Origin: Candidatus Hadarchaeota archaeon
Lineage (GTDB): Archaea; Hadarchaeota; Hadarchaeia; Hadarchaeales; JAGGTB01
DNA: 64,000 nucleotides
Assembly: GCA_964510375.1 (NCBI GenBank)
Contig: CAZEBR010000001.1
Coordinates: 37,207 to 101,206 of the forward strand
Reading direction: 5' to 3'
Below, in pieces: positions 46,870-57,178 of the stretch. A program made the position numbers and the translations under genes. Position 1 is the stretch's first letter. Each line of letters opens with the position of its first letter. The notes below the pieces were generated by a model. That model made no database searches, was not told where the DNA came from, and saw nothing but the letters and a program-made list of their open reading frames with translations.

Positions 46870-47070
46870 GTGACTGAATTACCAATTGCTGCAGTTGATC
46901 GGATTATAAGAAAGGCAGGCGCAAGAAGAGTTAGTGAAAGTGCTGCTGAAGAATTGGCAGAAGTACTCGAAGACCAAGCACTAGAAATAGCTGGCGAAGC
47001 AACGGAACTAGCAGACCACGCTGGCAGAAAGACTGTGAGAGATACGGATATACGCCTAGCATCCAAATAG
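46870..47070 (+). CDS. Archaeal histone (HMf-like histone fold)
   Basis: 66 aa; [31 protein letters not shown]...[14 protein letters not shown]; GTG start with GGAGATAAAG RBS; long AT-rich promoter upstream. Confidence 0.85.
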
Positions 47071-47600: not shown

Positions 47601-48089
47601 ATGCTCGATGTTAGTGGTTATGAGGAAAATATGTCAAATATTGATGAAACCGACAAGGAGATTATAAGAGCCTTAGAGACGGATGGTAGAGCCTCCTTCA
47701 GAGAAATAGCGGAGGATCTTGAAGTTTCTGAGGGGACTGTTTACAATCGAGTAAAGAAAATGGAAGAGGAGGGTATAATCAAAGGATTTTCAGTTCGAGC
47801 CGATTCGATGAAGCTCGGGAAGACGTTAGAGGCCGTGATAGGTCTTAAAGTCGATGGGGGTCATCTCGTTGAAGTTGAAGAAAAGCTTTCGGAGGAAGAG
47901 CCGGTTCGATGCGTTTACGATGTTACGGGGCAGTATGATGTAATCCTGATAGGAAGATTTGAAACAAGAGCAGAGTTAAATGAGTTCGTCAAAAAAACGC
48001 TTTCTCTAGAGCACGTGGAAAGATCTTCTACCCATTTGGTCTTGAACGTGGTAAAAGAAGACTTTAGGACCTTTGACCCGTTAGAGTGA
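47601..48089 (+). CDS. lrp: Lrp/AsnC family transcriptional regulator
   Basis: N-terminal HTH (DKEIIRALETDGRASFREIAEDLEVSEGTVYNRVKKMEEEGII) plus C-terminal RAM domain. Confidence 0.8.
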   Translation: MLDVSGYEENMSNIDETDKEIIRALETDGRASFREIAEDLEVSEGTVYNRVKKMEEEGIIKGFSVRADSMKLGKTLEAVIGLKVDGGHLVEVEEKLSEEEPVRCVYDVTGQYDVILIGRFETRAELNEFVKKTLSLEHVERSSTHLVLNVVKEDFRTFDPLE

Positions 48090-48099
48090 AATTTTGGAT

Positions 48100-50775
48100 C
48101 TATCTTAACCTTAGTTCCGCTCGGACTGTTTCGTCGCTTTCCTCTTCTATCTCGAAGCCCATTTTTTCTACTAGATTTATCATCCGTGTGTTTTCTTTCA
48201 TAATGGTACCGTAGATATAGTCTAACTCTTTATCTTCAGCGACTCCGATTATGGCATCGGTTAGTTTCTCGCCCAATCCTAGTCCTTGCCAAGGGTCTCC
48301 CACGACTACGGCGTATTCGCCGGCATTTTTGTCCGGATCTATTATGAGCCTGCCAACCCCGATCATTTTTCTTTCTCCTTCTTCCTCCAACACGCCAATA
48401 ATGGCCATTTCCCTCCGATAGTCGATGTTTGTAAACCTGACCATATCCTCGTGAGTTACATCCTTCATCGGGCCGAAAAATCTGTATCGCCAAGTTTCCT
48501 TTGAGAAGGTCTCGAAGAGCTCGAATTCTAGAGGTTCGTCCTCCGGCCTGATAGGACGGAGGGTAACGGGTCTTCCGTCATCCAGCTGCCATTCTTCAAT
48601 GTACTTTCGGGGATAGGATTCAAAGACCAAATGGTCCCTGTATTCCGAACCCTCTGTGACTTTGTCTTTATCGATAATCACCCTGGCGTCCAAGGCAAGG
48701 TACTCGTCCCCTGAACTCGCCAGAGGATTTATGTCGAGTTCCCTGATCTCCGGGAAGTCTATTATGAGTTGGGATAGCCTGACCAGGTGTTCTTCGATCA
48801 ACCTTAGTTGCTCATGAGAGTATTCGTCCGAATCCTTCATCTGTCGGTAGACCCTAGTGTCTTCCATGAGATGACGAGCCAAGCTTTGGTTGAGAGGGGG
48901 TAGGCCAACAGCGATATCTTGATAGTATTCTACGTCCGAACCTCCCTTCCCAAACACGATTGTGGAGCCGAAGGTTGGGTCAGTTTTCGAACCTAAGATT
49001 AGTTCAATGCGCTGATCTTGAATCATTTTTTGAACGGTTACTCCTTCTATCTCAGCGGAGGGGCGATTTTCTTTGACTCTCTCCATTATTTCTTCGTATT
49101 TCTCCTTTACTTCGTCCTTGGAGTTTATGTTAAGGGCAACACCGCCCACTTTTCTTTTATGAGTTATGTCCTCCGAGTATACCTTCAGAACTATCGGAAA
49201 ACCAAGTTTAGAGGCGTACTTTACAGCTTCTCTGGATGTGGATGCTATGTGCGTCGTCGGGGTTGGGATACCGTAGGTTCTCAAAATTTTCTTGGACTCC
49301 GTTTCCGTGAGGATTTCTCTGTCGTTTCTGGCGATCCTCCGAATCATCGCTTTAAGGTTGTATTTTGGAGGTGTTCTGTCGACTGGAAGCTCTTCGGGAG
49401 TTTCGAGAAGGCGTTCTAGATTCCTGGCGTATCGGTTCAGGTACATGTAAGCCTTTATAGACTGTTCGGGTGCCGATTGGACTGATAGGCCTCCTTGGCG
49501 TAGGATTTTACGGCCTTCTCCGACCTTTTCTCCACCCATCCAACACGCCAGGAGAGGCTTTTTCACGTTTTCCTTCAAGCCTTCTATGGCGTCAGCTGCG
49601 GAGGTAGGGGATAGAGTGCCGACGGGAGCGTAAATACAGAGGACGCCGTCCACATTCCCGTCCTCCAAACAGATTTCCGTGGCTTTTCTATACTGATTTG
49701 CGTTTGCGCCCCCGGTGACGTCGATGGGATTTGCTAAACTGGCCGTTGATGGTAGGGCCTCCTCTAGATCACTAACCGTAGAATCGGAAAGAGTGGCCAG
49801 ATCACCGCCCAGATCTATTAGGGCGTCCGTTGCCATTGCCCCGGGTCCGCCCGCATTAGTGACGATTGCAATTTGTGATCCCTCCGGTAGATCCTGCTTC
49901 GCTAGAGTCTCGGAGCAGGTGAAGAGATCATCTATTGTATCCACTCGGGTTACCCCGCATCTTTTGAAAACAGCATCATATACCTCATCGGCTCCGGCTA
50001 GAGATCCAGTGTGCGAAGCGACTGCCTGTGCACTTTTCTTATGCTTACCGGATTTCACAGCCATGATTGGTTGAGTTCTTGCAAAGCCTCTGGCGGCGCT
50101 TACGAATTCCTTGGCATCCTTGATCGCTTCGATGTACATGAGAATGCTGCCGGTTCTTGGGTCTCTACCAAAGTAGTCTATTAGGTCCGAGAAGTCGACG
50201 TCGACCATGTTACCGACCGAGACGAAACTGCTGAAGCCAAACTGGGCGGAAATGGCCCAGTCAAGTGTAGCGGAAGCAAGGGCTCCGCTCTGGGAAAGAA
50301 AGGCAATTTCTCCGGAATCGGGCATCTGGTTCGTAAAAGAAGCGTTCAAATCTTGGGAGGGGTTTATTATTCCCAAGCAGTTTGGCCCGATGATCCTCAT
50401 ATCATATTCTTTATTTGCCTCTGAGATTTCCTGTTCGAGTTTTTTTCCTTCTTTACCAGTCTCGCTGAATCCGGCGGATATAATTACTAGTCCTCCGATT
50501 CCCGATTCGCCGCACTCCTCCACCACTTGGGGTACCGTCGGAGCGGGCGTGGCTATCACCCCGAGATCTACGGATTCTGGGATTTCGGTTACTTTCGATT
50601 TCGACTTCAATCCTAATACTTCGTCACGGTTTGGGTTTACCGGATATAATTCGCCCTTTGGCCTTTCCATTAGATTCTCCATAATGGTACGCCCGATGGA
50701 GTCTTTCTCTTCGGATGCGCCCACAACTGCGATATTTTCTGGCTTGAAAATGTTATCTAATCCGTGAGATGGCAT
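48100..50775 (-). CDS. Pat-like protein acetyltransferase: ADP-forming acyl-CoA synthetase (alpha+beta, NDP-forming) fused to C-terminal GNAT domain
   Basis: 891 aa; CoA-binding/SCS-like N-terminus, ATP-grasp middle, C-terminal GNAT (..AIIGV....MIGVGRLI...EYAVVVGDPWQGLGLGEKL); domain order as bacterial Pat/YfiQ. Confidence 0.75.
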   Translation of the reverse strand: MPSHGLDNIFKPENIAVVGASEEKDSIGRTIMENLMERPKGELYPVNPNRDEVLGLKSKSKVTEIPESVDLGVIATPAPTVPQVVEECGESGIGGLVIISAGFSETGKEGKKLEQEISEANKEYDMRIIGPNCLGIINPSQDLNASFTNQMPDSGEIAFLSQSGALASATLDWAISAQFGFSSFVSVGNMVDVDFSDLIDYFGRDPRTGSILMYIEAIKDAKEFVSAARGFARTQPIMAVKSGKHKKSAQAVASHTGSLAGADEVYDAVFKRCGVTRVDTIDDLFTCSETLAKQDLPEGSQIAIVTNAGGPGAMATDALIDLGGDLATLSDSTVSDLEEALPSTASLANPIDVTGGANANQYRKATEICLEDGNVDGVLCIYAPVGTLSPTSAADAIEGLKENVKKPLLACWMGGEKVGEGRKILRQGGLSVQSAPEQSIKAYMYLNRYARNLERLLETPEELPVDRTPPKYNLKAMIRRIARNDREILTETESKKILRTYGIPTPTTHIASTSREAVKYASKLGFPIVLKVYSEDITHKRKVGGVALNINSKDEVKEKYEEIMERVKENRPSAEIEGVTVQKMIQDQRIELILGSKTDPTFGSTIVFGKGGSDVEYYQDIAVGLPPLNQSLARHLMEDTRVYRQMKDSDEYSHEQLRLIEEHLVRLSQLIIDFPEIRELDINPLASSGDEYLALDARVIIDKDKVTEGSEYRDHLVFESYPRKYIEEWQLDDGRPVTLRPIRPEDEPLEFELFETFSKETWRYRFFGPMKDVTHEDMVRFTNIDYRREMAIIGVLEEEGERKMIGVGRLIIDPDKNAGEYAVVVGDPWQGLGLGEKLTDAIIGVAEDKELDYIYGTIMKENTRMINLVEKMGFEIEEESDETVRAELRLR

Positions 50776-50953
50776 TTTATACCTCTAACTTTCATAGTTC
50801 TATTTTAATTTTTGATATGTGATTAATCTTTTTATATCCGGGGACTTTTTTTATAAAGATGTTTTATACAGCTCTGGAATTACTCCTTTAGTCTATACAC
50901 CGTTAATAGGGATGATGGAAAATAATAGGGCCTTTATTTTGTTATAAGGAATT

Positions 50954-51295
50954 TTATGTATCTAATTCATTCAAAAGGCTCTTATATATCTCGTAAAGCC
51001 CGCCTTTGCTTATGCCAAGAGCTTGAGAGATTTCTACTTGGCTTCTCCAGTCACCCGTTTCATTTACTGCGATGTAAATAGCGGCGGCGAGTAAACTGTT
51101 CGGATTTTTGTCTTCTGCTATTCCCTTTTCGTCCGCTTTCTTGATTATTTCAATTGCCTTCTCTTGGGTCTCTTCCGACAGGCCGAGTTCCTCGGCCGCT
51201 TTTGGCATGAGATTCGATAAAATGCTCATCAGATCTGATTTTACCATTTTTCTGTCATCGTTCATCATGTTTTCACTTCGATTGTTTACTCTCAT
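50954..51295 (-). CDS. Stand-alone TFIIB/TFB cyclin-fold-like small protein (mini-TFB?)
   Basis: 113 aa; LSEETQEKAIEIIKKADEKGIAEDKNPNSLLAAAIYIAVNETGDWRSQVEISQALGISKGGLYEIYKSL parallels one TFB core cyclin repeat (AAAIYIA.R....T..EI........EI...Y..I). Confidence 0.4.
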   Translation of the reverse strand: MRVNNRSENMMNDDRKMVKSDLMSILSNLMPKAAEELGLSEETQEKAIEIIKKADEKGIAEDKNPNSLLAAAIYIAVNETGDWRSQVEISQALGISKGGLYEIYKSLLNELDT

Positions 51296-51375
51296 CTAAC
51301 GGACCATCGTCTTATAAGCTTTCGTAATTGATTTTTGAAGCTCGCTACTTTCTTTTAGAATAGATTAGAATTTTT

Positions 51376-53265
51376 CTAGGAAATTTTTTCTTTTATTTTT
51401 TCCTCTAAAATGGCATGAACAGTTTTTCCGTCTGCTTTTCCTCCAACTTCCTGCATTGCCAATCCCATAAGAGCATCTATTGATTTTTCTCCTCTTTCTT
51501 CTATTAAATCTTCTTTATCTTCAACTATTTCCGATATTATATCGGATATCTTTTTCTCATCCATCTTTTGTATTCCTAAATCTTCGATTGACTCTTTTAC
51601 GGATGATCCCTTTCCAACCTCTTTTAGGATGTTAATCAGGGAGTCTTTCGGTATTTTATCTTCGGATATGAGCTTGAATAGTTTTTTTATCGAGGATTCG
51701 TTGATATTTTCCACTGGGATTCCTTCTCCCTTTAATTGGATCATCGTTTGTTCAAGGGTCGAAGCAACTAGGGTTGGATTCACATCGTATTCTTCTACAA
51801 TTTCTTCGAATAATCCGGATTTATTGGAAGTGCTCATTTGTTTGGCAAGGTCCTCGCTGAGCCCGAATTCTTTTAGGTATCTCTTTCTTTTCGCATCTGG
51901 CCTTTCCGGTAGTCCATCCTTTATCTCTTCTATCTTGTCCTCCGAGATATTGGTCGGCGGAACGTCGGTTTCAACGTACATCCGCGCAGCTCCGGGGAGA
52001 GGTCTCATATACTGAGTGTCGCCATCGGGCAAGGCTCTCCTAGTTTCTTCCGGAATACCCTCGAAGGCTTTGTTTGCTCTATTGATGACGGCTTCCAGTC
52101 CCTTCTCGGCCCTGTCTCTCTCGTCAGCAATCATGACTATTGCATCGTCCTTAGAAGTTTCTAGTTCGCTCTTTAGTTCTCTTATTTCACCCTCGGTAAT
52201 TCCATAGTCCGGAAGTTCGTCCGTGTGGAAAAGGCCCCCAACCCCTCCGTAAACTTGTGCGTAATCCGACAACTCGGTTCCGAATCTTCTGTCGGGGGAT
52301 AGTTCCTTTCCGAGAAGTCCCGCAAATCCCGAAAGCGTGACGGCATAGACGCCACCACCCTCAGATATAGTTTTTTTCAGAAGATTTGAGTCGGTATCGG
52401 AGAATATTTCGGTGACATCGTGGATTTCTTTATTCGGTCTTTTTACATCTCTCTCTTCCAACTCTTCTTTTATCTCCAACAACTTTGCCTGCCTGCTTAC
52501 CTCCCTCTCGATTACTGTTTTGATAAGAGATAGTTCCTGAACTCCTTTGATTTCCTGTCTGGCTCCATCCTCGATCGAGACGTTAACGTCCTGACGGATA
52601 GTTCCGATTCCCCTTTTTACCTTTCCCGTCGCTCTGAGGATTTTACCGATTTTTTCCGCAGCTTTTGCAGTTTCTTCCGGACTGTTAAAATCGGGTGCCG
52701 TTGCGATTTCCAGTAGTGGAATACCGAGTCGATCCAATCTGTATTTCACGAAATCGGACCCTTCGTCTATTTTTCTTGCGGCGTCTTCCTCAAGGCAGAT
52801 TGTGGGTAGGCCTATCCTTTTTCCGTTTATTTCCATCTGTCCGTCCGTGGCTATCAGGATTGTCCGCTGGAACCCCGCCGTATTGCTCCCGTCGATTACC
52901 GTTTTTCTCATTACGTGGGCTTCGTCAATGGGAGTGGCATCAAGCAGCAGCGAAGCTTCCAAGGCAATATCCCTCGCCTCCTCGTTTACGGTATGTGGTG
53001 GCTCTTCGTCCAGTTCGACAAGGCAGACGTTGTCGGGATGGACTTCGTATTTGAATCTTTTGCTCTTTTCGGCTTCGGCGAGTGCCGCGCGGTCTATTTC
53101 CCCGAGCTCGCTTTCAGTCGGTCTAAGTTCCCTATTTACGGTTATTGAGGGATCCTCGTCCCGAAGTTCGGAAGGACAGTCACAGAATAGCTTGTGAGTG
53201 TCGAGTTCTTGGTGAATTTCAAAGCCGGCTTTCAAACCGAGTTCTTCGTAATCCAATTTCTCCAT
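51376..53265 (-). CDS. gatE: Glutamyl-tRNA(Gln) amidotransferase subunit E
   Basis: 629 aa; GatB/E catalytic core plus archaea-specific insertion and C-terminal YqeY-like tail. Confidence 0.9.
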   Translation of the reverse strand: MEKLDYEELGLKAGFEIHQELDTHKLFCDCPSELRDEDPSITVNRELRPTESELGEIDRAALAEAEKSKRFKYEVHPDNVCLVELDEEPPHTVNEEARDIALEASLLLDATPIDEAHVMRKTVIDGSNTAGFQRTILIATDGQMEINGKRIGLPTICLEEDAARKIDEGSDFVKYRLDRLGIPLLEIATAPDFNSPEETAKAAEKIGKILRATGKVKRGIGTIRQDVNVSIEDGARQEIKGVQELSLIKTVIEREVSRQAKLLEIKEELEERDVKRPNKEIHDVTEIFSDTDSNLLKKTISEGGGVYAVTLSGFAGLLGKELSPDRRFGTELSDYAQVYGGVGGLFHTDELPDYGITEGEIRELKSELETSKDDAIVMIADERDRAEKGLEAVINRANKAFEGIPEETRRALPDGDTQYMRPLPGAARMYVETDVPPTNISEDKIEEIKDGLPERPDAKRKRYLKEFGLSEDLAKQMSTSNKSGLFEEIVEEYDVNPTLVASTLEQTMIQLKGEGIPVENINESSIKKLFKLISEDKIPKDSLINILKEVGKGSSVKESIEDLGIQKMDEKKISDIISEIVEDKEDLIEERGEKSIDALMGLAMQEVGGKADGKTVHAILEEKIKEKIS

Positions 53266-53267
53266 CT

Positions 53268-54623
53268 TCAGTCTTCCTCCGGTAAATTGCTCTTAAGATA
53301 GGTATCGGCTCGACTGCGGTCGGAAATCTCTCCGGCGAGGTTCTCTTTCATTAGGGATTCGACCTCATCGGGTTCTTGTGTTTTGTCGAGAACCCACATC
53401 ATTTTCACGTAAGCGGTTTCGGGCAACATATCCTCCAGTGAAAATACCCCTTTGTCCAGCAAATCCCGACCCGTGGAGTAAACTCTCATGTTGGTCCTCC
53501 CCCATAGGCACTGAGAGGTCATGGCGACGGGAATATCTTCGTTTATTGCTTCTTCGATCCCGTCCTGCAAGGACTTTGGAGCGTGTCCTAATCCTGTGCC
53601 CTCCAAAACAATTCCTTTGTAACCGTCCTCGATTAATTTCCTTATAATGTCAGATTGAATATTTGGATATACTTTGAGTAAAGCCACTTTTTCCTCGAAT
53701 CCGTTTCTGAGTTTCAATTTTTCTTTTTCCTCTCCATCATTAATTTCCTCTCGGAATAGTTCTATCTCCCCTTTCCTGTTCACTCGTCCGATCGGGGTTT
53801 CATTGATAGTCTGGAAAGCGTCTCTCCGGCTGGTATGGCACTTTCTCACTTTTGTCCCCGGGTGAATTAGACAGAACTCGTCCTCGGTCGATCCGTGCAT
53901 TACCGTGTAGACTCCCGAGAGATTTGAAGACGCAGTGGATACGGCACCTATTAAGTTCAGTGCGGCGTCGCTGCTGGGCCGATCTGAAGACCTCTGAGAT
54001 CCGACTAGGACGACAGGCTTGTTCAAGTTTTCAAGCATAAAACTGAGCGCGGAGGCCGTGTATCCCATGGTGTCGGTCCCGTGTGCTATCACGACACCTT
54101 CTGCATCATTCCTGAGTTCCTCCACGGTTTTTTCTCCTATTTCCGACCAGAGCTCAGGAGTCATATTTTCGCTGAGAACGTTGCACGCGGTTTTTGCCCT
54201 GATATTTGCTATTTCGGCTATTTCCGGACTCATGTTGTAAATCTCGGCGGTAGAAAATGCGGGATGGACGGCTCCAGTTCTGTAATCAATTTTGGAAGCT
54301 ACGGTCCCTCCTGTTCCTATGATGGTAACATCGGGCTTGTCGGGATCGGGTTCCACCTCTACGGGCGTTTTTCCCATCTCTGGCTCTTTTCCTTCCTTTA
54401 TCTTTTCTATTCGTGTTTCTTCAGAAACCTGCAGACCGACATTGTAACCGTTGTCCAGTTTTAGTACTATGTGGTCGGGTTCCCTCCCCTCAGTTCTGGG
54501 CATGAGTAACCCTTCGAAAGTTTGTTCCTTTTTTTCGACCCTGACTCTGTCTCCTATCTCGGCTTTTGCTGATTTAATCAGGCCTTCAGCTTTGCCTTGA
54601 TAGCTATTCATGTGAATGACCAA
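53268..54623 (-). CDS. gatD: Glutamyl-tRNA(Gln) amidotransferase subunit D (asparaginase-like)
   Basis: 451 aa; asparaginase motifs (IIGTGGTVASK, HGTDTM); 2-nt gap to gatE on same strand. Confidence 0.9.
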   Translation of the reverse strand: MVIHMNSYQGKAEGLIKSAKAEIGDRVRVEKKEQTFEGLLMPRTEGREPDHIVLKLDNGYNVGLQVSEETRIEKIKEGKEPEMGKTPVEVEPDPDKPDVTIIGTGGTVASKIDYRTGAVHPAFSTAEIYNMSPEIAEIANIRAKTACNVLSENMTPELWSEIGEKTVEELRNDAEGVVIAHGTDTMGYTASALSFMLENLNKPVVLVGSQRSSDRPSSDAALNLIGAVSTASSNLSGVYTVMHGSTEDEFCLIHPGTKVRKCHTSRRDAFQTINETPIGRVNRKGEIELFREEINDGEEKEKLKLRNGFEEKVALLKVYPNIQSDIIRKLIEDGYKGIVLEGTGLGHAPKSLQDGIEEAINEDIPVAMTSQCLWGRTNMRVYSTGRDLLDKGVFSLEDMLPETAYVKMMWVLDKTQEPDEVESLMKENLAGEISDRSRADTYLKSNLPEED

Positions 54624-54677: not shown

Positions 54678-56630
54678 TCATGCCATTTGGTTGGGGGATA
54701 CGTAGTCTCCGTATTTCTCTCTGGCTTCTTCTAACCGTTGTTCCTGTTTTTCAAGCTCTTCGAAGAGTTCCTTGGGGGGATTCTCAACTTTTTCTCTGTA
54801 AATTTTCCTTATCCGCTCGATTTTAGCTAGGTGTTCCGGTATTCTTAGGGTGAACTGTTCTTCGTATTCCTTTCTGGTGTACTCTTTGTCCAGAACTTCG
54901 GAAAACAATCGTTTTAAGTCCTCGTACTTCGGGATGTAACCGGTAGGAGTTTTAATTGCTTTCACGTCTCGGTTGGCTCGAAGATCCATCCACTTGAGCC
55001 AGACCTTTTTGTCATGCATATCGTTCAGGTATTCACCGCACTCGTCTTTGAGGAAATAGTTCGCCGAAAATATCGAGGGTCTTTCATCCAGTTTTTTTCC
55101 GAATCTTAGTTGATGAGCGATGTAATCTCCGATCGGTATCGATAGGAAGTCCAGATTTGACATCGGATTAAATCTCCTCTCTCCGGACTTGCCGAGGGTC
55201 GCCGACGTGGTTTCTGATTCGAGGGTGGCCCCTTTGGTAAGGATACCGTGTTTCCAGTTGAATGCTTCTTCTATCGGGACACAGGTGTCGGAATCTCTAC
55301 CCCCATAGATTATACCGTCAAGTGAAACCCCTTCAGTATTTTCGAGATTTGGGTCTGCGTTCTCCAAATCCGATATTCTCAGCGTGTATCTCGCGTTCCT
55401 GTGGGAGGGGTCGATCAGGTTTCCGTCCGAATCTCTCTTGCCCTTCCACCACTTGCCCGAGTGGTTGATTCCCTCCTCCGGAGTTTCTTGTCCCATCCCC
55501 ATCCAGTACGGTTTGCCATCATTTACCAAAACGTTGGAGAAGATTACCTCTCCGGGCGTGGTGACGGAATTCCATATTAATGGATCGTCCTCCGGGTTTA
55601 CGTCTCTTATGATTCCAAAAATTCCGTTTTCCGGATTAGCTGCTCTTACCTCCCCATCTATTTCCCGAAGATATGCAATATCATCACCAATCAGATTTTC
55701 ATCCTTAATCATCGAGGTGGAAGTTTTTCCGCATCCAGAGGGATATGCTCCGGTAAAGTAAGAGGTTCTTCCCTTGGGACCGTTTACTCCCATTATAAAC
55801 ATGTGTTCGGTCAACCAGCCCTCTTCATATCCTTTTTTAATCGCCAATCTCATGGCTAGTTTTTTTGCGCCGATGGTGTTTCCACCGTATTGAGTATTTG
55901 TAGAATATACTACGTTTGAGTCAAGATCCGTGTAAACTCTTCTCTTGTCGATCTCTTTCGAAACGCCATCTTCAAGGGTCCCGGCTGAGTGCACGAATTT
56001 AAAAAAGTCTTCCTTCCTATCAAAATTTCTTCTTTTGAAGAGGTCATATCCATCCCTATAGAGTATATCTTCGGAGTGAGCAACATATGTGGAGTCCGTG
56101 ATTTGAAGCACTGGCATCGAGAATGGGGATTTTTTCGGACCGAGACAGAAGAAGCATATGTAAGCTTCCTTTCCTTCCATGATGTTTTTTAAGTATCCGT
56201 GGACCTCTTCCAGACCTTTTTCTCGGTCTATGCTATTGAACTGAGGACCTATTTCTTCTTGGGGTGATGTGAGGAATTTTGTATTTCCTTTATCCCTAGC
56301 TTGATCGTTATATCCATCATAATGGACGGTATGTCCTTCCATTTCCAGAGGTTTCTCTTCTGCCTTTTCGATGGATCTATTTCTGATGTATTTCGCATCC
56401 TCGTCGCTATTAGCCCTGACAAAAGCGGAGTCCGGGTTGCAGAGCTTGAGGTATTTTGCAACAAATTCAGTTACGGCCGGGTTGTTTAACTTAACTAGTT
56501 TTTGATATCCCTCTTCTCCGCATTTCTCCTTTAGTACTTTTTCTTTGTCGGCAACTCTGGGTAGAAACTCTTCTGCTTTCATTTCAGGGGCCGTGCCTTC
56601 TGTTTTCTTTCGGGTTAACTTTTCACTCAT
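54678..56630 (-). CDS. pckG: Phosphoenolpyruvate carboxykinase (GTP)
   Basis: 650 aa; GTP-PEPCK kinase motifs (AYPSGCGKTSTSM, FGGRDSD..). Confidence 0.9.
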   Translation of the reverse strand: MSEKLTRKKTEGTAPEMKAEEFLPRVADKEKVLKEKCGEEGYQKLVKLNNPAVTEFVAKYLKLCNPDSAFVRANSDEDAKYIRNRSIEKAEEKPLEMEGHTVHYDGYNDQARDKGNTKFLTSPQEEIGPQFNSIDREKGLEEVHGYLKNIMEGKEAYICFFCLGPKKSPFSMPVLQITDSTYVAHSEDILYRDGYDLFKRRNFDRKEDFFKFVHSAGTLEDGVSKEIDKRRVYTDLDSNVVYSTNTQYGGNTIGAKKLAMRLAIKKGYEEGWLTEHMFIMGVNGPKGRTSYFTGAYPSGCGKTSTSMIKDENLIGDDIAYLREIDGEVRAANPENGIFGIIRDVNPEDDPLIWNSVTTPGEVIFSNVLVNDGKPYWMGMGQETPEEGINHSGKWWKGKRDSDGNLIDPSHRNARYTLRISDLENADPNLENTEGVSLDGIIYGGRDSDTCVPIEEAFNWKHGILTKGATLESETTSATLGKSGERRFNPMSNLDFLSIPIGDYIAHQLRFGKKLDERPSIFSANYFLKDECGEYLNDMHDKKVWLKWMDLRANRDVKAIKTPTGYIPKYEDLKRLFSEVLDKEYTRKEYEEQFTLRIPEHLAKIERIRKIYREKVENPPKELFEELEKQEQRLEEAREKYGDYVSPNQMA

Positions 56631-56695
56631 TTTCTATCCTTCTTTTTCCCTAAATGGTAAGGTTTATAAGGTTTTCTGTTAACAAAATGTTAAGC

Positions 56696-57178
56696 ATGAA
56701 GGAACTTGATAAGAAGATAATTTATCAACTTTTGAAGAATGCGGATCAACCTATAGTGGAGATCGCAGAGAAGGTAGGAGCATCCAGACAGACTGTTTCG
56801 AAGAAGATTAACAAGTTCAAGGATGACGGCGTGATAAAAGGAATCACCGCCAAACTCGACCCTGAAAAGTTCGGTTTGTCCGTCAGGGCTTACGTTTTTC
56901 TTCAGGAGGAACCCGAGGATGAAATTAGAAAGGAGAACGAGGATAAAATCAACGAATTTCCTCAGGTTTCGAAATTCTTCCGGCTTTTTGGAAGATACAG
57001 TGGAGTGCTGGAGGTCTGGAGCGAAGATAGGGACGAATTGACTTCTTTAGTAAAAGAAATTCACGAGCTGGATGGGGTAAAGGAGACGGAAACTTTCCTT
57101 ATCCATAGTACGGTTAAAGAGGAACCGGAAGTACCGTTTTTTAATGAGTTGGAGATTGGTCAGGAATCAAATCTTTAA
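56696..57178 (+). CDS. Lrp/AsnC family transcriptional regulator (second copy)
   Basis: HTH KKIIYQLLKNADQPIVEIAEKVGASRQTVSKKINKFKDDGVI; TTTATAA TATA-like box at 56663-56669 lies inside the longer ORF-track call (56654), so start is probably ATG 56696 on a leaderless transcript. Confidence 0.7.
   Translation: MKELDKKIIYQLLKNADQPIVEIAEKVGASRQTVSKKINKFKDDGVIKGITAKLDPEKFGLSVRAYVFLQEEPEDEIRKENEDKINEFPQVSKFFRLFGRYSGVLEVWSEDRDELTSLVKEIHELDGVKETETFLIHSTVKEEPEVPFFNELEIGQESNL

What the first reader, a model, noticed from the sequence alone, without database searches (positions are those of the whole stretch)
50954..51295. Stand-alone TFB/TFIIB cyclin-fold-like miniprotein next to gatE
The 113-aa product has the AAAIYIA signature and following HTH-like helix of a TFIIB core cyclin repeat. 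It has no Zn ribbon, no B-reader and no second repeat. A truncated TFB paralogue could modulate basal transcription. Together with the mini-TBP and two Lrp regulators this 10-kb stretch is unusually rich in small transcription-related proteins.
Basis: inference. Interest (0 to 1): 0.5.

Follow-up and report, generated by a model that had tools for sequence, protein, structure and literature searches.

The report
Stand-alone half-TFB linked to Pat acetyltransferase
This is a real, conserved small archaeal gene that encodes only the last of the two cyclin-like repeats of transcription factor TFB, with a changed DNA-reading helix, and it sits beside a Pat-type protein acetyltransferase gene in every relative whose flanks can be read, so it is probably a regulatory offshoot of TFB and not an initiation factor.

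Summary
The ORF exists on the minus strand at 50954-51295. It is a single TFIIB/TFB cyclin-like repeat: Pfam PF00382 scores 50.9 bits against a cut-off of 23.6. It corresponds to the second (C-terminal, BRE-reading) repeat. An AlphaFold model (pLDDT 88.5) superposes on P. woesei TFBc at 0.6 Å over 84 residues.

The true start is probably M11 (51265), giving 103 aa. All close homologues start there, and a conserved BRE/TATA-like element lies about 50 nt upstream.

The gene is under purifying selection (pN 0.10-0.21, pS 0.72-0.96). It belongs to a very small family of 11 clusters among 5.8 billion, found in Hadarchaeota-like archaea. It lacks the Zn ribbon, B-reader and first repeat. The invariant TFB recognition helix T-E-V-T-[IV]-R-N-R is replaced by a family-specific S-K-[GS]-x-L-[YF], so it cannot be a canonical initiation factor.

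The conserved neighbour is a PatZ-type lysine acetyltransferase, not gatE. The short form lies 5' of pat in six lineages, and a 185-aa long form lies 3' of pat in two.

My best reading is a TFB-derived HTH module functionally coupled to Pat. That mechanism is inferred, not shown. I rate it a new variant of a known kind, of moderate interest.

The parts
50954..51265 (-). Coding sequence of the mini-TFB as I read it: 103 aa plus stop, starting at M11 of the listed ORF. M10 at 51268 is equally possible. The mechanical and NCBI ORF extends to 51295 (113 aa).
   Evidence: ORF list. The homologues are 103-106 aa and begin MDDxKRMVKSDL, which aligns with window M11. The upstream ATG at 51295 is not conserved in the DNA alignment. 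PF00382 scores 50.9 bits. pN is far below pS.
50963..51040 (-). Helix-turn-helix of the cyclin-like repeat (residues 76-101 of the 103-aa protein; helices H4' 76-83 and H5' 87-101). The recognition helix is family-specific, S-K-G-G-L-Y-E-I-Y-K, in place of the TFB sequence T-E-V-T-[IV]-R-N-R-Y-K.
   Evidence: AF2 secondary structure. Column-by-column comparison of 11 family members with 20 full-length TFBs.
51311..51324 (-). Archaeal promoter-like element: BRE-like CGAAAG (51324-51319) followed by TATA-like CTTATAAG (51318-51311), about 50 nt upstream of the M11 ATG.
   Evidence: It is conserved as CGAAAGnTTATAA in the window, L083, L084 and L086, and as A/T-rich variants in L001 and L085, although synonymous sites are saturated. 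That it functions as a promoter is inferred.
51273..51279 (-). Weak Shine-Dalgarno-like GAAGTGA, 5-8 nt upstream of the ATG pair. The homologues have GGAG or GAGG at the same place.
   Evidence: DNA alignment A2. Inference.
48100..50775 (-). PatZ/Pat-type protein lysine acetyltransferase (NDP-forming acyl-CoA-synthetase-like regulatory part plus a C-terminal GNAT domain), 891 aa. This is the conserved neighbour of the mini-TFB family.
   Evidence: Pfam finds CoA_binding, Succ_CoA_lig, ATP-grasp_5 and Acetyltransf. It matches the solved 'Protein acetyltransferase' 9it0_A end to end at E=1.2e-163. It is adjacent to mini-TFB in the window, L001, L083/84, L086, L087/88, L092, L002 and L089.
50814..50837 (-). 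Conserved block ATATAAAAAGATTAATCACATATC in the mini-TFB/pat spacer, about 40-60 nt upstream of the pat ATG. It is probably the pat promoter (TATA-like plus initiator region). This suggests that pat has its own promoter.
   Evidence: DNA alignment A4 of 6 loci. The function is inferred.
51376..53265 (-). gatE (with gatD at 53268-54623 upstream of it). It is the upstream neighbour in the window, but only a variable neighbour of the family.
   Evidence: Pfam GatB_N/GAD/GatB_Yqey. gatE is upstream in the window, L001, L085 and L087/88, but a radical-SAM gene takes its place in L083 and it is absent in L002 and L089.

Best explanation
Shown:
- The gene encodes a genuine single-domain paralogue of archaeal TFB. 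It consists only of the second cyclin-like repeat with its helix-turn-helix.
- It lacks the Zn ribbon, the B-reader/linker and the first repeat.
- Every invariant polar or charged residue of the TFB BRE-recognition helix has been exchanged for a different set that is itself conserved within the family.
- The gene is under purifying selection.
- It keeps a PatZ-type lysine acetyltransferase gene as its neighbour through at least two different gene orders.
- A conserved BRE/TATA-like element upstream suggests it is transcribed on its own. That it works as a promoter is inferred.

It follows from the known roles of the missing parts that it cannot recruit RNA polymerase or read a canonical BRE.

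Inferred mechanism: it is a small regulatory HTH module that works together with Pat. It uses the changed HTH surface, which is the most conserved part of the family, to bind a specific DNA site or a TBP-DNA complex. It either controls pat expression locally or is switched by Pat-dependent acetylation. The candidate target is the invariant Lys at the N-terminus of the recognition helix (K87), which replaces an invariant Glu of TFBs. The precedent is Pat acetylating Lys180 in the HTH of RcsB.
For: Identity and fold:
- PF00382 scores 50.9 bits, and the match is to the second repeat only.
- The AF2 model has pLDDT 88.5 and five helices.
- Foldseek's top hits are 1d3u_B and 1ais_B, rmsd 0.6 Å over 84 residues, TMq 0.80.

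Real gene:
- There are 11 clusters with E<=1e-36, clearly separated from full-length TFBs at E>=1e-23.
- pN is 0.10-0.21 against pS 0.72-0.96.
- A BRE/TATA-like element is conserved upstream.

Not a fragment:
- Only 110 nt lie between the gatE stop and the start codon, and no other TFB piece is found in the window.
- Other short PF00382 proteins in the databases are split genes or contig-end fragments, and they keep the canonical TEVTIRNRY helix.

Changed HTH:
- TFBs have T-E-V-T-[IV]-R-N-R in 19-20 of 20 sequences.
- The family has S-K-[GS]-[GAS]-L-[YF]-[EN]-x, and K/R77 is replaced by V.
- R74, S75 (T in TFBs) and Q76, plus Y94 and K95, are retained.
- W-R-S-x-V-E-x-S-Q-A and S-K-x-x-L-[YF]-x-x-Y-K are the longest invariant blocks.

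Linkage to Pat:
- The neighbour is an end-to-end homologue of solved PatZ.
- The short form lies 5' of pat in six lineages, with varying upstream genes. The long form lies 3' of pat in two lineages, with different flanks.

Precedent: Pat acetylates Lys180 in the HTH motif RSIK180TIS of RcsB and abolishes its DNA binding (PMC3013089).
Against: - No direct evidence exists for DNA binding, Pat interaction or acetylation.
- The protein is acidic (pI 4.4-5.2, net charge -2.5 to -9.5), and three to four basic DNA-facing residues of TFB are lost. However, the whole proteome is acidic: the histone has pI 4.9 and Lrp 4.6.
- No operator-like repeat shared between loci was found in the flanking spacers.
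- The linkage rests on only about 8 lineages of one narrow clade. One long-form contig (L093, 909 bp) shows no pat within the 228 nt upstream.
- The short form has no obvious dimerisation element.
Confidence: 0.4

Rival explanations
1. Basal-transcription modulator or decoy. The free second repeat occupies the position of the TFB C-terminal repeat on TBP-DNA, or binds the N-terminal region of full-length TFB. Because it cannot recruit RNA polymerase, it would dampen or re-target initiation globally or at a promoter subset.
For: The fold is nearly identical to the TFB second repeat. Both TFB repeats touch the TBP stirrup in the ternary complex, and the second repeat has been proposed to approach the Zn ribbon (PMC4581349). 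Truncated paralogues of general factors that act in trans are known, such as TFB3 and TFS4 (titles and abstracts).
Against: The BRE-reading residues are all replaced. Nothing in the gene neighbourhood links it to TBP, TFB or RNAP genes. The conserved Pat adjacency is left unexplained. Contacts with TBP could not be examined with these tools.
Confidence: 0.2
2. Protein-only adaptor. The cyclin fold acts as a regulatory or substrate-targeting subunit of the Pat acetyltransferase, as cyclins do for kinases, and has no DNA-binding role.
For: Pat adjacency is conserved in two different gene orders. The protein is acidic and has lost basic HTH residues. PatZ activity is known to depend on regulatory-domain contacts that shape the substrate pocket (PMC12184503 abstract).
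Against: The most conserved surface is exactly the HTH, and it keeps the R-S/T-Q and Y-K residues shared with the DNA-binding TFBs. In the short-form loci the two genes appear to have separate promoters and are 70-195 nt apart, so they are not a tight operon of subunits.
Confidence: 0.2
3. A decaying remnant of a TFB gene, or a gene-calling artefact without function.
For: Such fragments do exist. P0254 is the second half of a split TFB next to gar1, and P0007 is cut by a contig end.
Against: The gene shows strong purifying selection with saturated synonymous sites. Length and start are conserved in 11 clusters. It has its own conserved BRE/TATA-like element. It has family-specific invariant residues. 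There is no room or trace of the missing parts upstream.
Confidence: 0.02
4. An unrelated sigma-70 region 4 / LuxR-type HTH protein that only mimics the TFB signature.
For: Weak sub-threshold hits to Sigma70_r4 (E=0.086) and HTH_24 (E=0.014) over the last 25 residues.
Against: The TFIIB repeat match is 12 orders of magnitude better and covers all five helices. The structural superposition on TFBc is 0.6 Å.
Confidence: 0.01

Closest known systems
Archaeal TFB / eukaryotic TFIIB, C-terminal (second) cyclin-like repeat with HTH (PF00382; P. woesei TFBc, PDB 1AIS/1D3U)
   Same: The five-helix fold is the same (rmsd 0.6 Å, 37% identity over 84 residues). The helix-3 AAAIYIA core, the R-[ST]-Q at the start of helix 4', and Y-K-x-L in helix 5' are shared.
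   Different: It has no Zn ribbon, B-reader/linker or first repeat. The recognition helix T-E-V-T-[IV]-R-N-R is changed to S-K-[GS]-x-L-[YF]-[EN]-x. K/R77 is changed to V. It is a stand-alone gene of 103 aa.
Sulfolobus TFB3 (truncated TFB paralogue acting in trans in the UV/DNA-damage response)
   Same: It is also a truncated, non-canonical TFB paralogue that cannot by itself act as an initiation factor (PMC6101594 and PMC6101591, listed).
   Different: The truncation is the reciprocal one. From my own knowledge of those papers, TFB3 keeps the N-terminal Zn ribbon plus a coiled coil and lacks the cyclin core. The protein here keeps only the last cyclin repeat.
Pat/PatZ (YfiQ) with RcsB: acetylation of a lysine in an HTH recognition motif
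   Same: A PatZ-type enzyme is paired with a small HTH protein that carries an invariant Lys at the turn/recognition-helix junction. In RcsB the motif is RSIK180TIS. Here it is G[IV]SK87.
   Different: The RcsB HTH is LuxR-type and its gene is not linked to pat. Acetylation of the mini-TFB is purely hypothetical.
Bacterial sigma-70 region 4 / ECF sigma minimal modules
   Same: Both are minimal HTH modules. The TFB second repeat has been argued to be homologous to sigma region 4 (PMC4581349).
   Different: The sequence match to Sigma70_r4 is below threshold (E=0.086). The protein has the full five-helix cyclin repeat.

Membership tests
TFIIB/TFB cyclin-like repeat domain (PF00382) | Profile match above the curated gathering score | tested here: met
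   50.9 bits against a cut-off of 23.6, E=1.6e-13, covering profile positions 12-91 of 92. All family members carry PF00382.
TFIIB/TFB cyclin-like repeat domain (PF00382) | Five-helix cyclin-like fold ending in a helix-turn-helix | tested here: met
   The AF2 model has pLDDT 88.5 and helices at 9-27, 31-46, 55-70, 76-83 and 87-101. Foldseek against 1d3u_B gives rmsd 0.6 Å over 84 residues and TMq 0.80.
Functional general transcription factor TFB/TFIIB | N-terminal Zn ribbon (PF08271) that recruits RNA polymerase | tested here: not met
   The sequence has no Cys. There is no PF08271 hit, whereas the full-length TFB hits carry it. Only about 8 residues precede helix 1'.
Functional general transcription factor TFB/TFIIB | B-reader/B-linker and two cyclin-like repeats | tested here: not met
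   There is a single matched stretch. The NCBIfam TFB model is matched only at positions 223-307 of 312. The exhaustive search reports one stretch, against two or more for TFBs. Only 110 nt of spacer lie upstream.
Functional general transcription factor TFB/TFIIB | Conserved BRE-reading recognition helix (T-E-V-T-[IV]-R-N-R-Y-K-E-L) | tested here: not met
   The motif is invariant in 19-20 of 20 TFBs. It is replaced by S-K-[GS]-[GAS]-L-[YF]-[EN]-x-Y-K in 11 of 11 family members.
Functional general transcription factor TFB/TFIIB | Binding to the TBP-DNA complex | not testable with these tools
   No multimer modelling or experiment was available.
Sigma-70 region 4 / LuxR-type HTH | Profile match above threshold | tested here: not met
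   PF04545 gives E=0.086 and 12.8 bits against a cut-off of 24.1, over 15 residues only.
TFB3-type truncated TFB paralogue | Zn ribbon retained and cyclin core lost | tested here: not met
   The architecture here is the opposite: the cyclin repeat is retained and the Zn ribbon is lost.
Pat/PatZ substrate or partner | Conserved genomic linkage to a PatZ-type acetyltransferase | tested here: met
   pat is adjacent in all 8 lineages with readable flanks, in two gene orders. One short contig, L093, is uninformative or negative.
Pat/PatZ substrate or partner | Acetylation by Pat, or physical interaction with Pat | not testable with these tools
   Only a candidate site can be named: the invariant K87 at the start of the recognition helix.

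The most novel reading that the evidence does not exclude
A general-transcription-factor domain (the BRE-reading repeat of TFB) has been released as a free module and wired to lysine acetylation. The mini-TFB would sit on DNA or TBP-DNA at selected promoters as a non-productive or re-targeting element. The neighbouring PatZ-type enzyme would switch it on or off by acetylating the HTH lysine, so that acetyl-CoA status feeds directly into promoter choice in an archaeon. Together with the co-resident single-repeat TBP-like protein, this could amount to a set of 'half' basal factors used as regulators.
Probability: 0.15. Interest if true: 0.75.

Novelty: new variant of a known kind. Interest (0 to 1): 0.45.

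Why it matters
TFB/TFIIB is normally an indivisible initiation factor. The known truncated paralogue, TFB3, keeps the N-terminal part. A conserved, free-standing C-terminal cyclin/HTH repeat with a changed recognition helix has two implications. First, it shows that this repeat can fold and be selected for on its own. This bears on models in which a single cyclin-like-repeat/HTH unit is the ancestral building block of TFB and sigma factors. Second, it offers a simple, testable candidate for a regulator derived from the basal machinery. Its persistent pairing with a PatZ-type acetyltransferase suggests a link between protein acetylation and transcription control in a poorly known, uncultured archaeal lineage (Hadarchaeota/MSBL1-like).

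Tried and rejected
- The first genome-contig scan, using the single protein, found no relative. The second scan, using the family alignment, found only L002.
- The metagenome-contig scan chose generic TFB patterns and returned only ordinary TFB second repeats at about 40% identity. It added no family members.
- The look-up of encoding contigs did not find the window's own 113-aa product.
- The afdb50 fold library was unavailable. The viral fold library gave only viral TFIIBs, none with E<=0.001.
- Sigma-70-type promoter and intrinsic-terminator scans found nothing and are not appropriate for an archaeon.
- Rfam and tRNA scans of the window were empty.
- I looked for operator-like direct or inverted repeats shared between loci in the spacers and found none consistent.
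- The long-form N-terminal 90 residues gave an AF2 model of low confidence (pLDDT 41-58). An hhalign comparison against full-length TFBs was insignificant (probability 0.6%), so I cannot say whether it is a degenerate first repeat or a coiled coil.
- A literature search for the human TFIIB BRE-contact residues (V283, R286) returned nothing usable, so I do not rely on that recollection.
- Searches for a published stand-alone C-terminal TFB repeat found none in the held library. That library is incomplete.
- The pseudogene/fragment reading was considered and rejected.
- Acidity as an argument against DNA binding was discounted, because the histone and Lrp of the same window are equally acidic.

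Full report
**Observation**

The window contains a 113-codon ORF on the minus strand at 50954-51295.
- Pfam assigns one TFIIB repeat (PF00382): E=1.6e-13, 50.9 bits against a cut-off of 23.6, residues 30-109 covering profile positions 12-91 of 92. Sigma70_r4 reaches only E=0.086.
- The NCBIfam TFB model is matched only at positions 223-307 of 312.
- Against PDB sequences, the best hits are the P. woesei TFB core (1d3u_B, 1ais_B; E about 9e-16). The second repeat scores 45.9 bits and the first 13.6 bits.

So the protein corresponds specifically to the C-terminal repeat. That is the repeat whose helix-turn-helix reads the BRE in TFB (PMC13502027; PMC4581349).

An AlphaFold2 model built on a 31-sequence alignment has mean pLDDT 88.5 and five helices: 9-27, 31-46, 55-70, 76-83 and 87-101. 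Foldseek places it on 1d3u_B and 1ais_B with rmsd 0.6 Å over 84 residues and TMq 0.80. The next hits are all TFIIB, Brf and then cyclins.

**Gene model**
- All close homologues are 103-106 aa and start MDDxKRMVKSDL, which aligns with M11 of the window ORF.
- In a DNA alignment of six loci, the window's first ATG (51295) is not conserved.
- A BRE/TATA-like element, CGAAAGnTTATAA (window 51324-51311), is conserved about 50 nt upstream of the shared ATG. A GGAG/GAGG-like ribosome-binding site follows it.
- A transcription start about 25 nt downstream of the TATA would fall near 51288-51290, which is after the first ATG. This is inference from the usual archaeal promoter geometry.
- I therefore read the gene as 50954-51265, 103 aa.

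**Is it a real gene or a fragment?**
- Only 110 nt separate it from the gatE stop codon. A tblastn with a full-length TFB finds nothing else in the 64-kb window.
- Pairwise Nei-Gojobori counts among five orthologues give pS 0.72-0.96 (saturated) against pN 0.10-0.21. This indicates strong purifying selection.
- A profile search of 5.8 billion clusters finds 11 family clusters at E<=1e-36. Eight are short (seven of 103-113 aa plus P0006, an 84-aa gene call that reads as 103 aa from an upstream ATG in L001). Three are long, 185 aa, with an extra N-terminal 80-90 residues. Full-length TFBs begin only at E about 1e-23.
- An exhaustive phmmer search of 1.84 billion representatives finds just two single-stretch relatives, P0003 and P0009. 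The other listed hits each show two or more matched stretches, as expected of TFBs with two repeats.
- Other short PF00382 proteins are artefacts. P0254 follows a Zn-ribbon ORF next to gar1 and so is a split TFB. P0007 abuts a contig end. Both keep the canonical TEVTIRNRY helix.

**What changed relative to TFB**

I compared 11 family members with 20 full-length TFBs column by column.
- Retained: the hydrophobic core and AAAIYIA; R74-S/T75-Q76 at the start of helix 4'; and Y94-K95-x-L97.
- Replaced: the recognition-helix motif T-E-V-T-[IV]-R-N-R, present in 19-20 of 20 TFBs, becomes S-K-[GS]-[GAS]-L-[YF]-[EN]-x. K/R77 becomes V.
- These new residues are themselves invariant in the family (S86, K87, L90, Y/F91). 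The HTH region contains the longest invariant blocks.

From these data the protein has no Zn ribbon (no Cys at all), no B-reader/linker, no first repeat and no canonical BRE-reading residues. It follows from the known roles of those parts that it cannot act as an initiation factor.

**Genomic context**

On the minus strand the gene order is gatD, gatE, mini-TFB, then an 891-aa gene. That gene is an end-to-end homologue of the solved 'Protein acetyltransferase' 9it0_A (E=1.2e-163), which I take to be the E. coli PatZ described in PMC12184503. It combines CoA-binding, ATP-grasp and GNAT domains.

| Locus or loci | Form | Position relative to pat | Other neighbours |
|---|---|---|---|
| window, L001, L087/88 | short | 5' of pat | gatD-gatE upstream |
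| L083/84 | short | 5' of pat | radical-SAM gene upstream (seen in L083) |
| L086, L092 | short | 5' of pat | upstream gene not covered by the contig |
| L085 | short | contig ends before pat would appear | gatE upstream |
| L002 (717-kb contig titled Candidatus Hadarchaeota archaeon) | long | 3' of pat | polB before pat; GH3-like gene after mini-TFB |
| L089 | long | 3' of pat | response regulator and S49 peptidase after mini-TFB |
| L093 (909 bp) | long | no pat within 228 nt upstream | none visible |

So the stable neighbour is pat and not gatE, and the adjacency survives a change of gene order and of all other neighbours. The spacer to pat carries its own conserved TATA-like block at 50814-50837, so the two genes are probably separate transcription units in the short-form loci.

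**Organism**
- The Pat protein is 67% identical to that of the Hadarchaeota MAG.
- The neighbouring 105-aa family includes a protein labelled Candidatus Hadarchaeia archaeon.
- Proteins in the window are uniformly acidic: histone pI 4.9, Lrp 4.6, gatE 4.7.
- A Hadarchaeota/MSBL1-like archaeon, possibly salt-adapted, is my inference.

**Mechanism**

Only the domain anatomy and the gene linkage are shown. Everything below is inference.

The conserved, changed HTH surface argues for a specific macromolecular partner, either DNA or protein. The persistent Pat adjacency argues for a functional link with lysine acetylation.

There is a precedent in bacteria. Pat acetylates Lys180 in the HTH motif RSIK180TIS of RcsB and abolishes its DNA binding (PMC3013089). 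The mini-TFB family has an invariant Lys (K87, in G[IV]SK) at the equivalent turn/recognition-helix junction, where all TFBs have Glu.

My preferred model, with confidence about 0.4, is a TFB-derived HTH regulator coupled to Pat. It would act as a local regulator of pat, as a Pat-switched DNA- or TBP-DNA-binding factor, or as both.

The rivals are:
- a decoy that competes with TFB at TBP-DNA or binds the TFB N-terminus (0.2);
- a protein-only, cyclin-like regulatory or targeting subunit of Pat (0.2);
- a functionless remnant (0.02);
- an unrelated sigma-r4-type HTH (0.01).

Against DNA binding are the acidic pI (4.4-5.2), the loss of three to four basic residues, and the absence of a shared operator-like repeat. 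The proteome-wide acidity weakens the first of these points.

**Comparison with known systems and novelty**

As a domain, the protein is a member of the PF00382 family. It fails four defining features of a functional TFB.

The nearest conceptual relative is Sulfolobus TFB3, which is truncated the opposite way. I found no description of a free C-terminal TFB repeat in the held literature. That library is incomplete, so this absence is weak evidence.

I rate it a new variant of a known kind with interest 0.45. The identity is solid and unusual and the Pat link is suggestive. However, the family is tiny and its function is unproven.

Noticed in passing
One member is labelled Candidatus Hadarchaeia archaeon. 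The window copy matches Pfam TBP (PF00352) only at E=0.034, but 23 of 25 members match at E<=1, the best at 2.1e-5, across nearly the whole repeat. A profile search of PDB sequences did not recover TBP. No copy was found in the 20 kb held around the long-form locus L002.
   Followed up: partly
window 48100-50775 (-): A full-length PatZ/Pat-type (type I GNAT) protein acetyltransferase in an archaeon. It is an end-to-end homologue of the solved bacterial enzyme 9it0_A (E=1e-163) and is 67% identical to the copy in a Hadarchaeota MAG.
   Followed up: partly
window 46870-47070 (+), 47601-48089 (+), 51376-53265 (-): The proteins here are uniformly acidic, even the archaeal histone (pI 4.9) and an Lrp/AsnC regulator (pI 4.6). 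This suggests a salt-in, halophile-like proteome, consistent with an MSBL1/Hadarchaeota-like brine organism.
   Followed up: no
window 50814-50837 (-): The block ATATAAAAAGATTAATCACATATC upstream of pat is conserved in five loci despite saturated synonymous divergence. The part downstream of the TATA-like stretch (TAATCACATAT) could be an initiator region or a regulator binding site.
   Followed up: no
L002 9740-10297 (+); L089 164-721 (+): A 185-aa long form of the family carries an extra, conserved, Cys-free N-terminal region of 80-90 residues, predicted to be helical. The AF2 confidence is low (pLDDT 41-58) and there is no significant similarity to the first TFB repeat (hhalign probability 0.6%). 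It may be a coiled-coil or dimerisation element.
   Followed up: partly
L088 1977-4060 (+): In this Logan contig the pat homologue is called as two genes (477 + 218 aa), and the tblastn match changes frame at residue 469. This is either a frameshift or an assembly error.
   Followed up: no
window 54678-56630 (-) and 56654-57178 (+): A GTP-dependent PEP carboxykinase lies next to a divergently oriented second Lrp/AsnC regulator. This looks like an ordinary local regulator-and-target arrangement.
   Followed up: no
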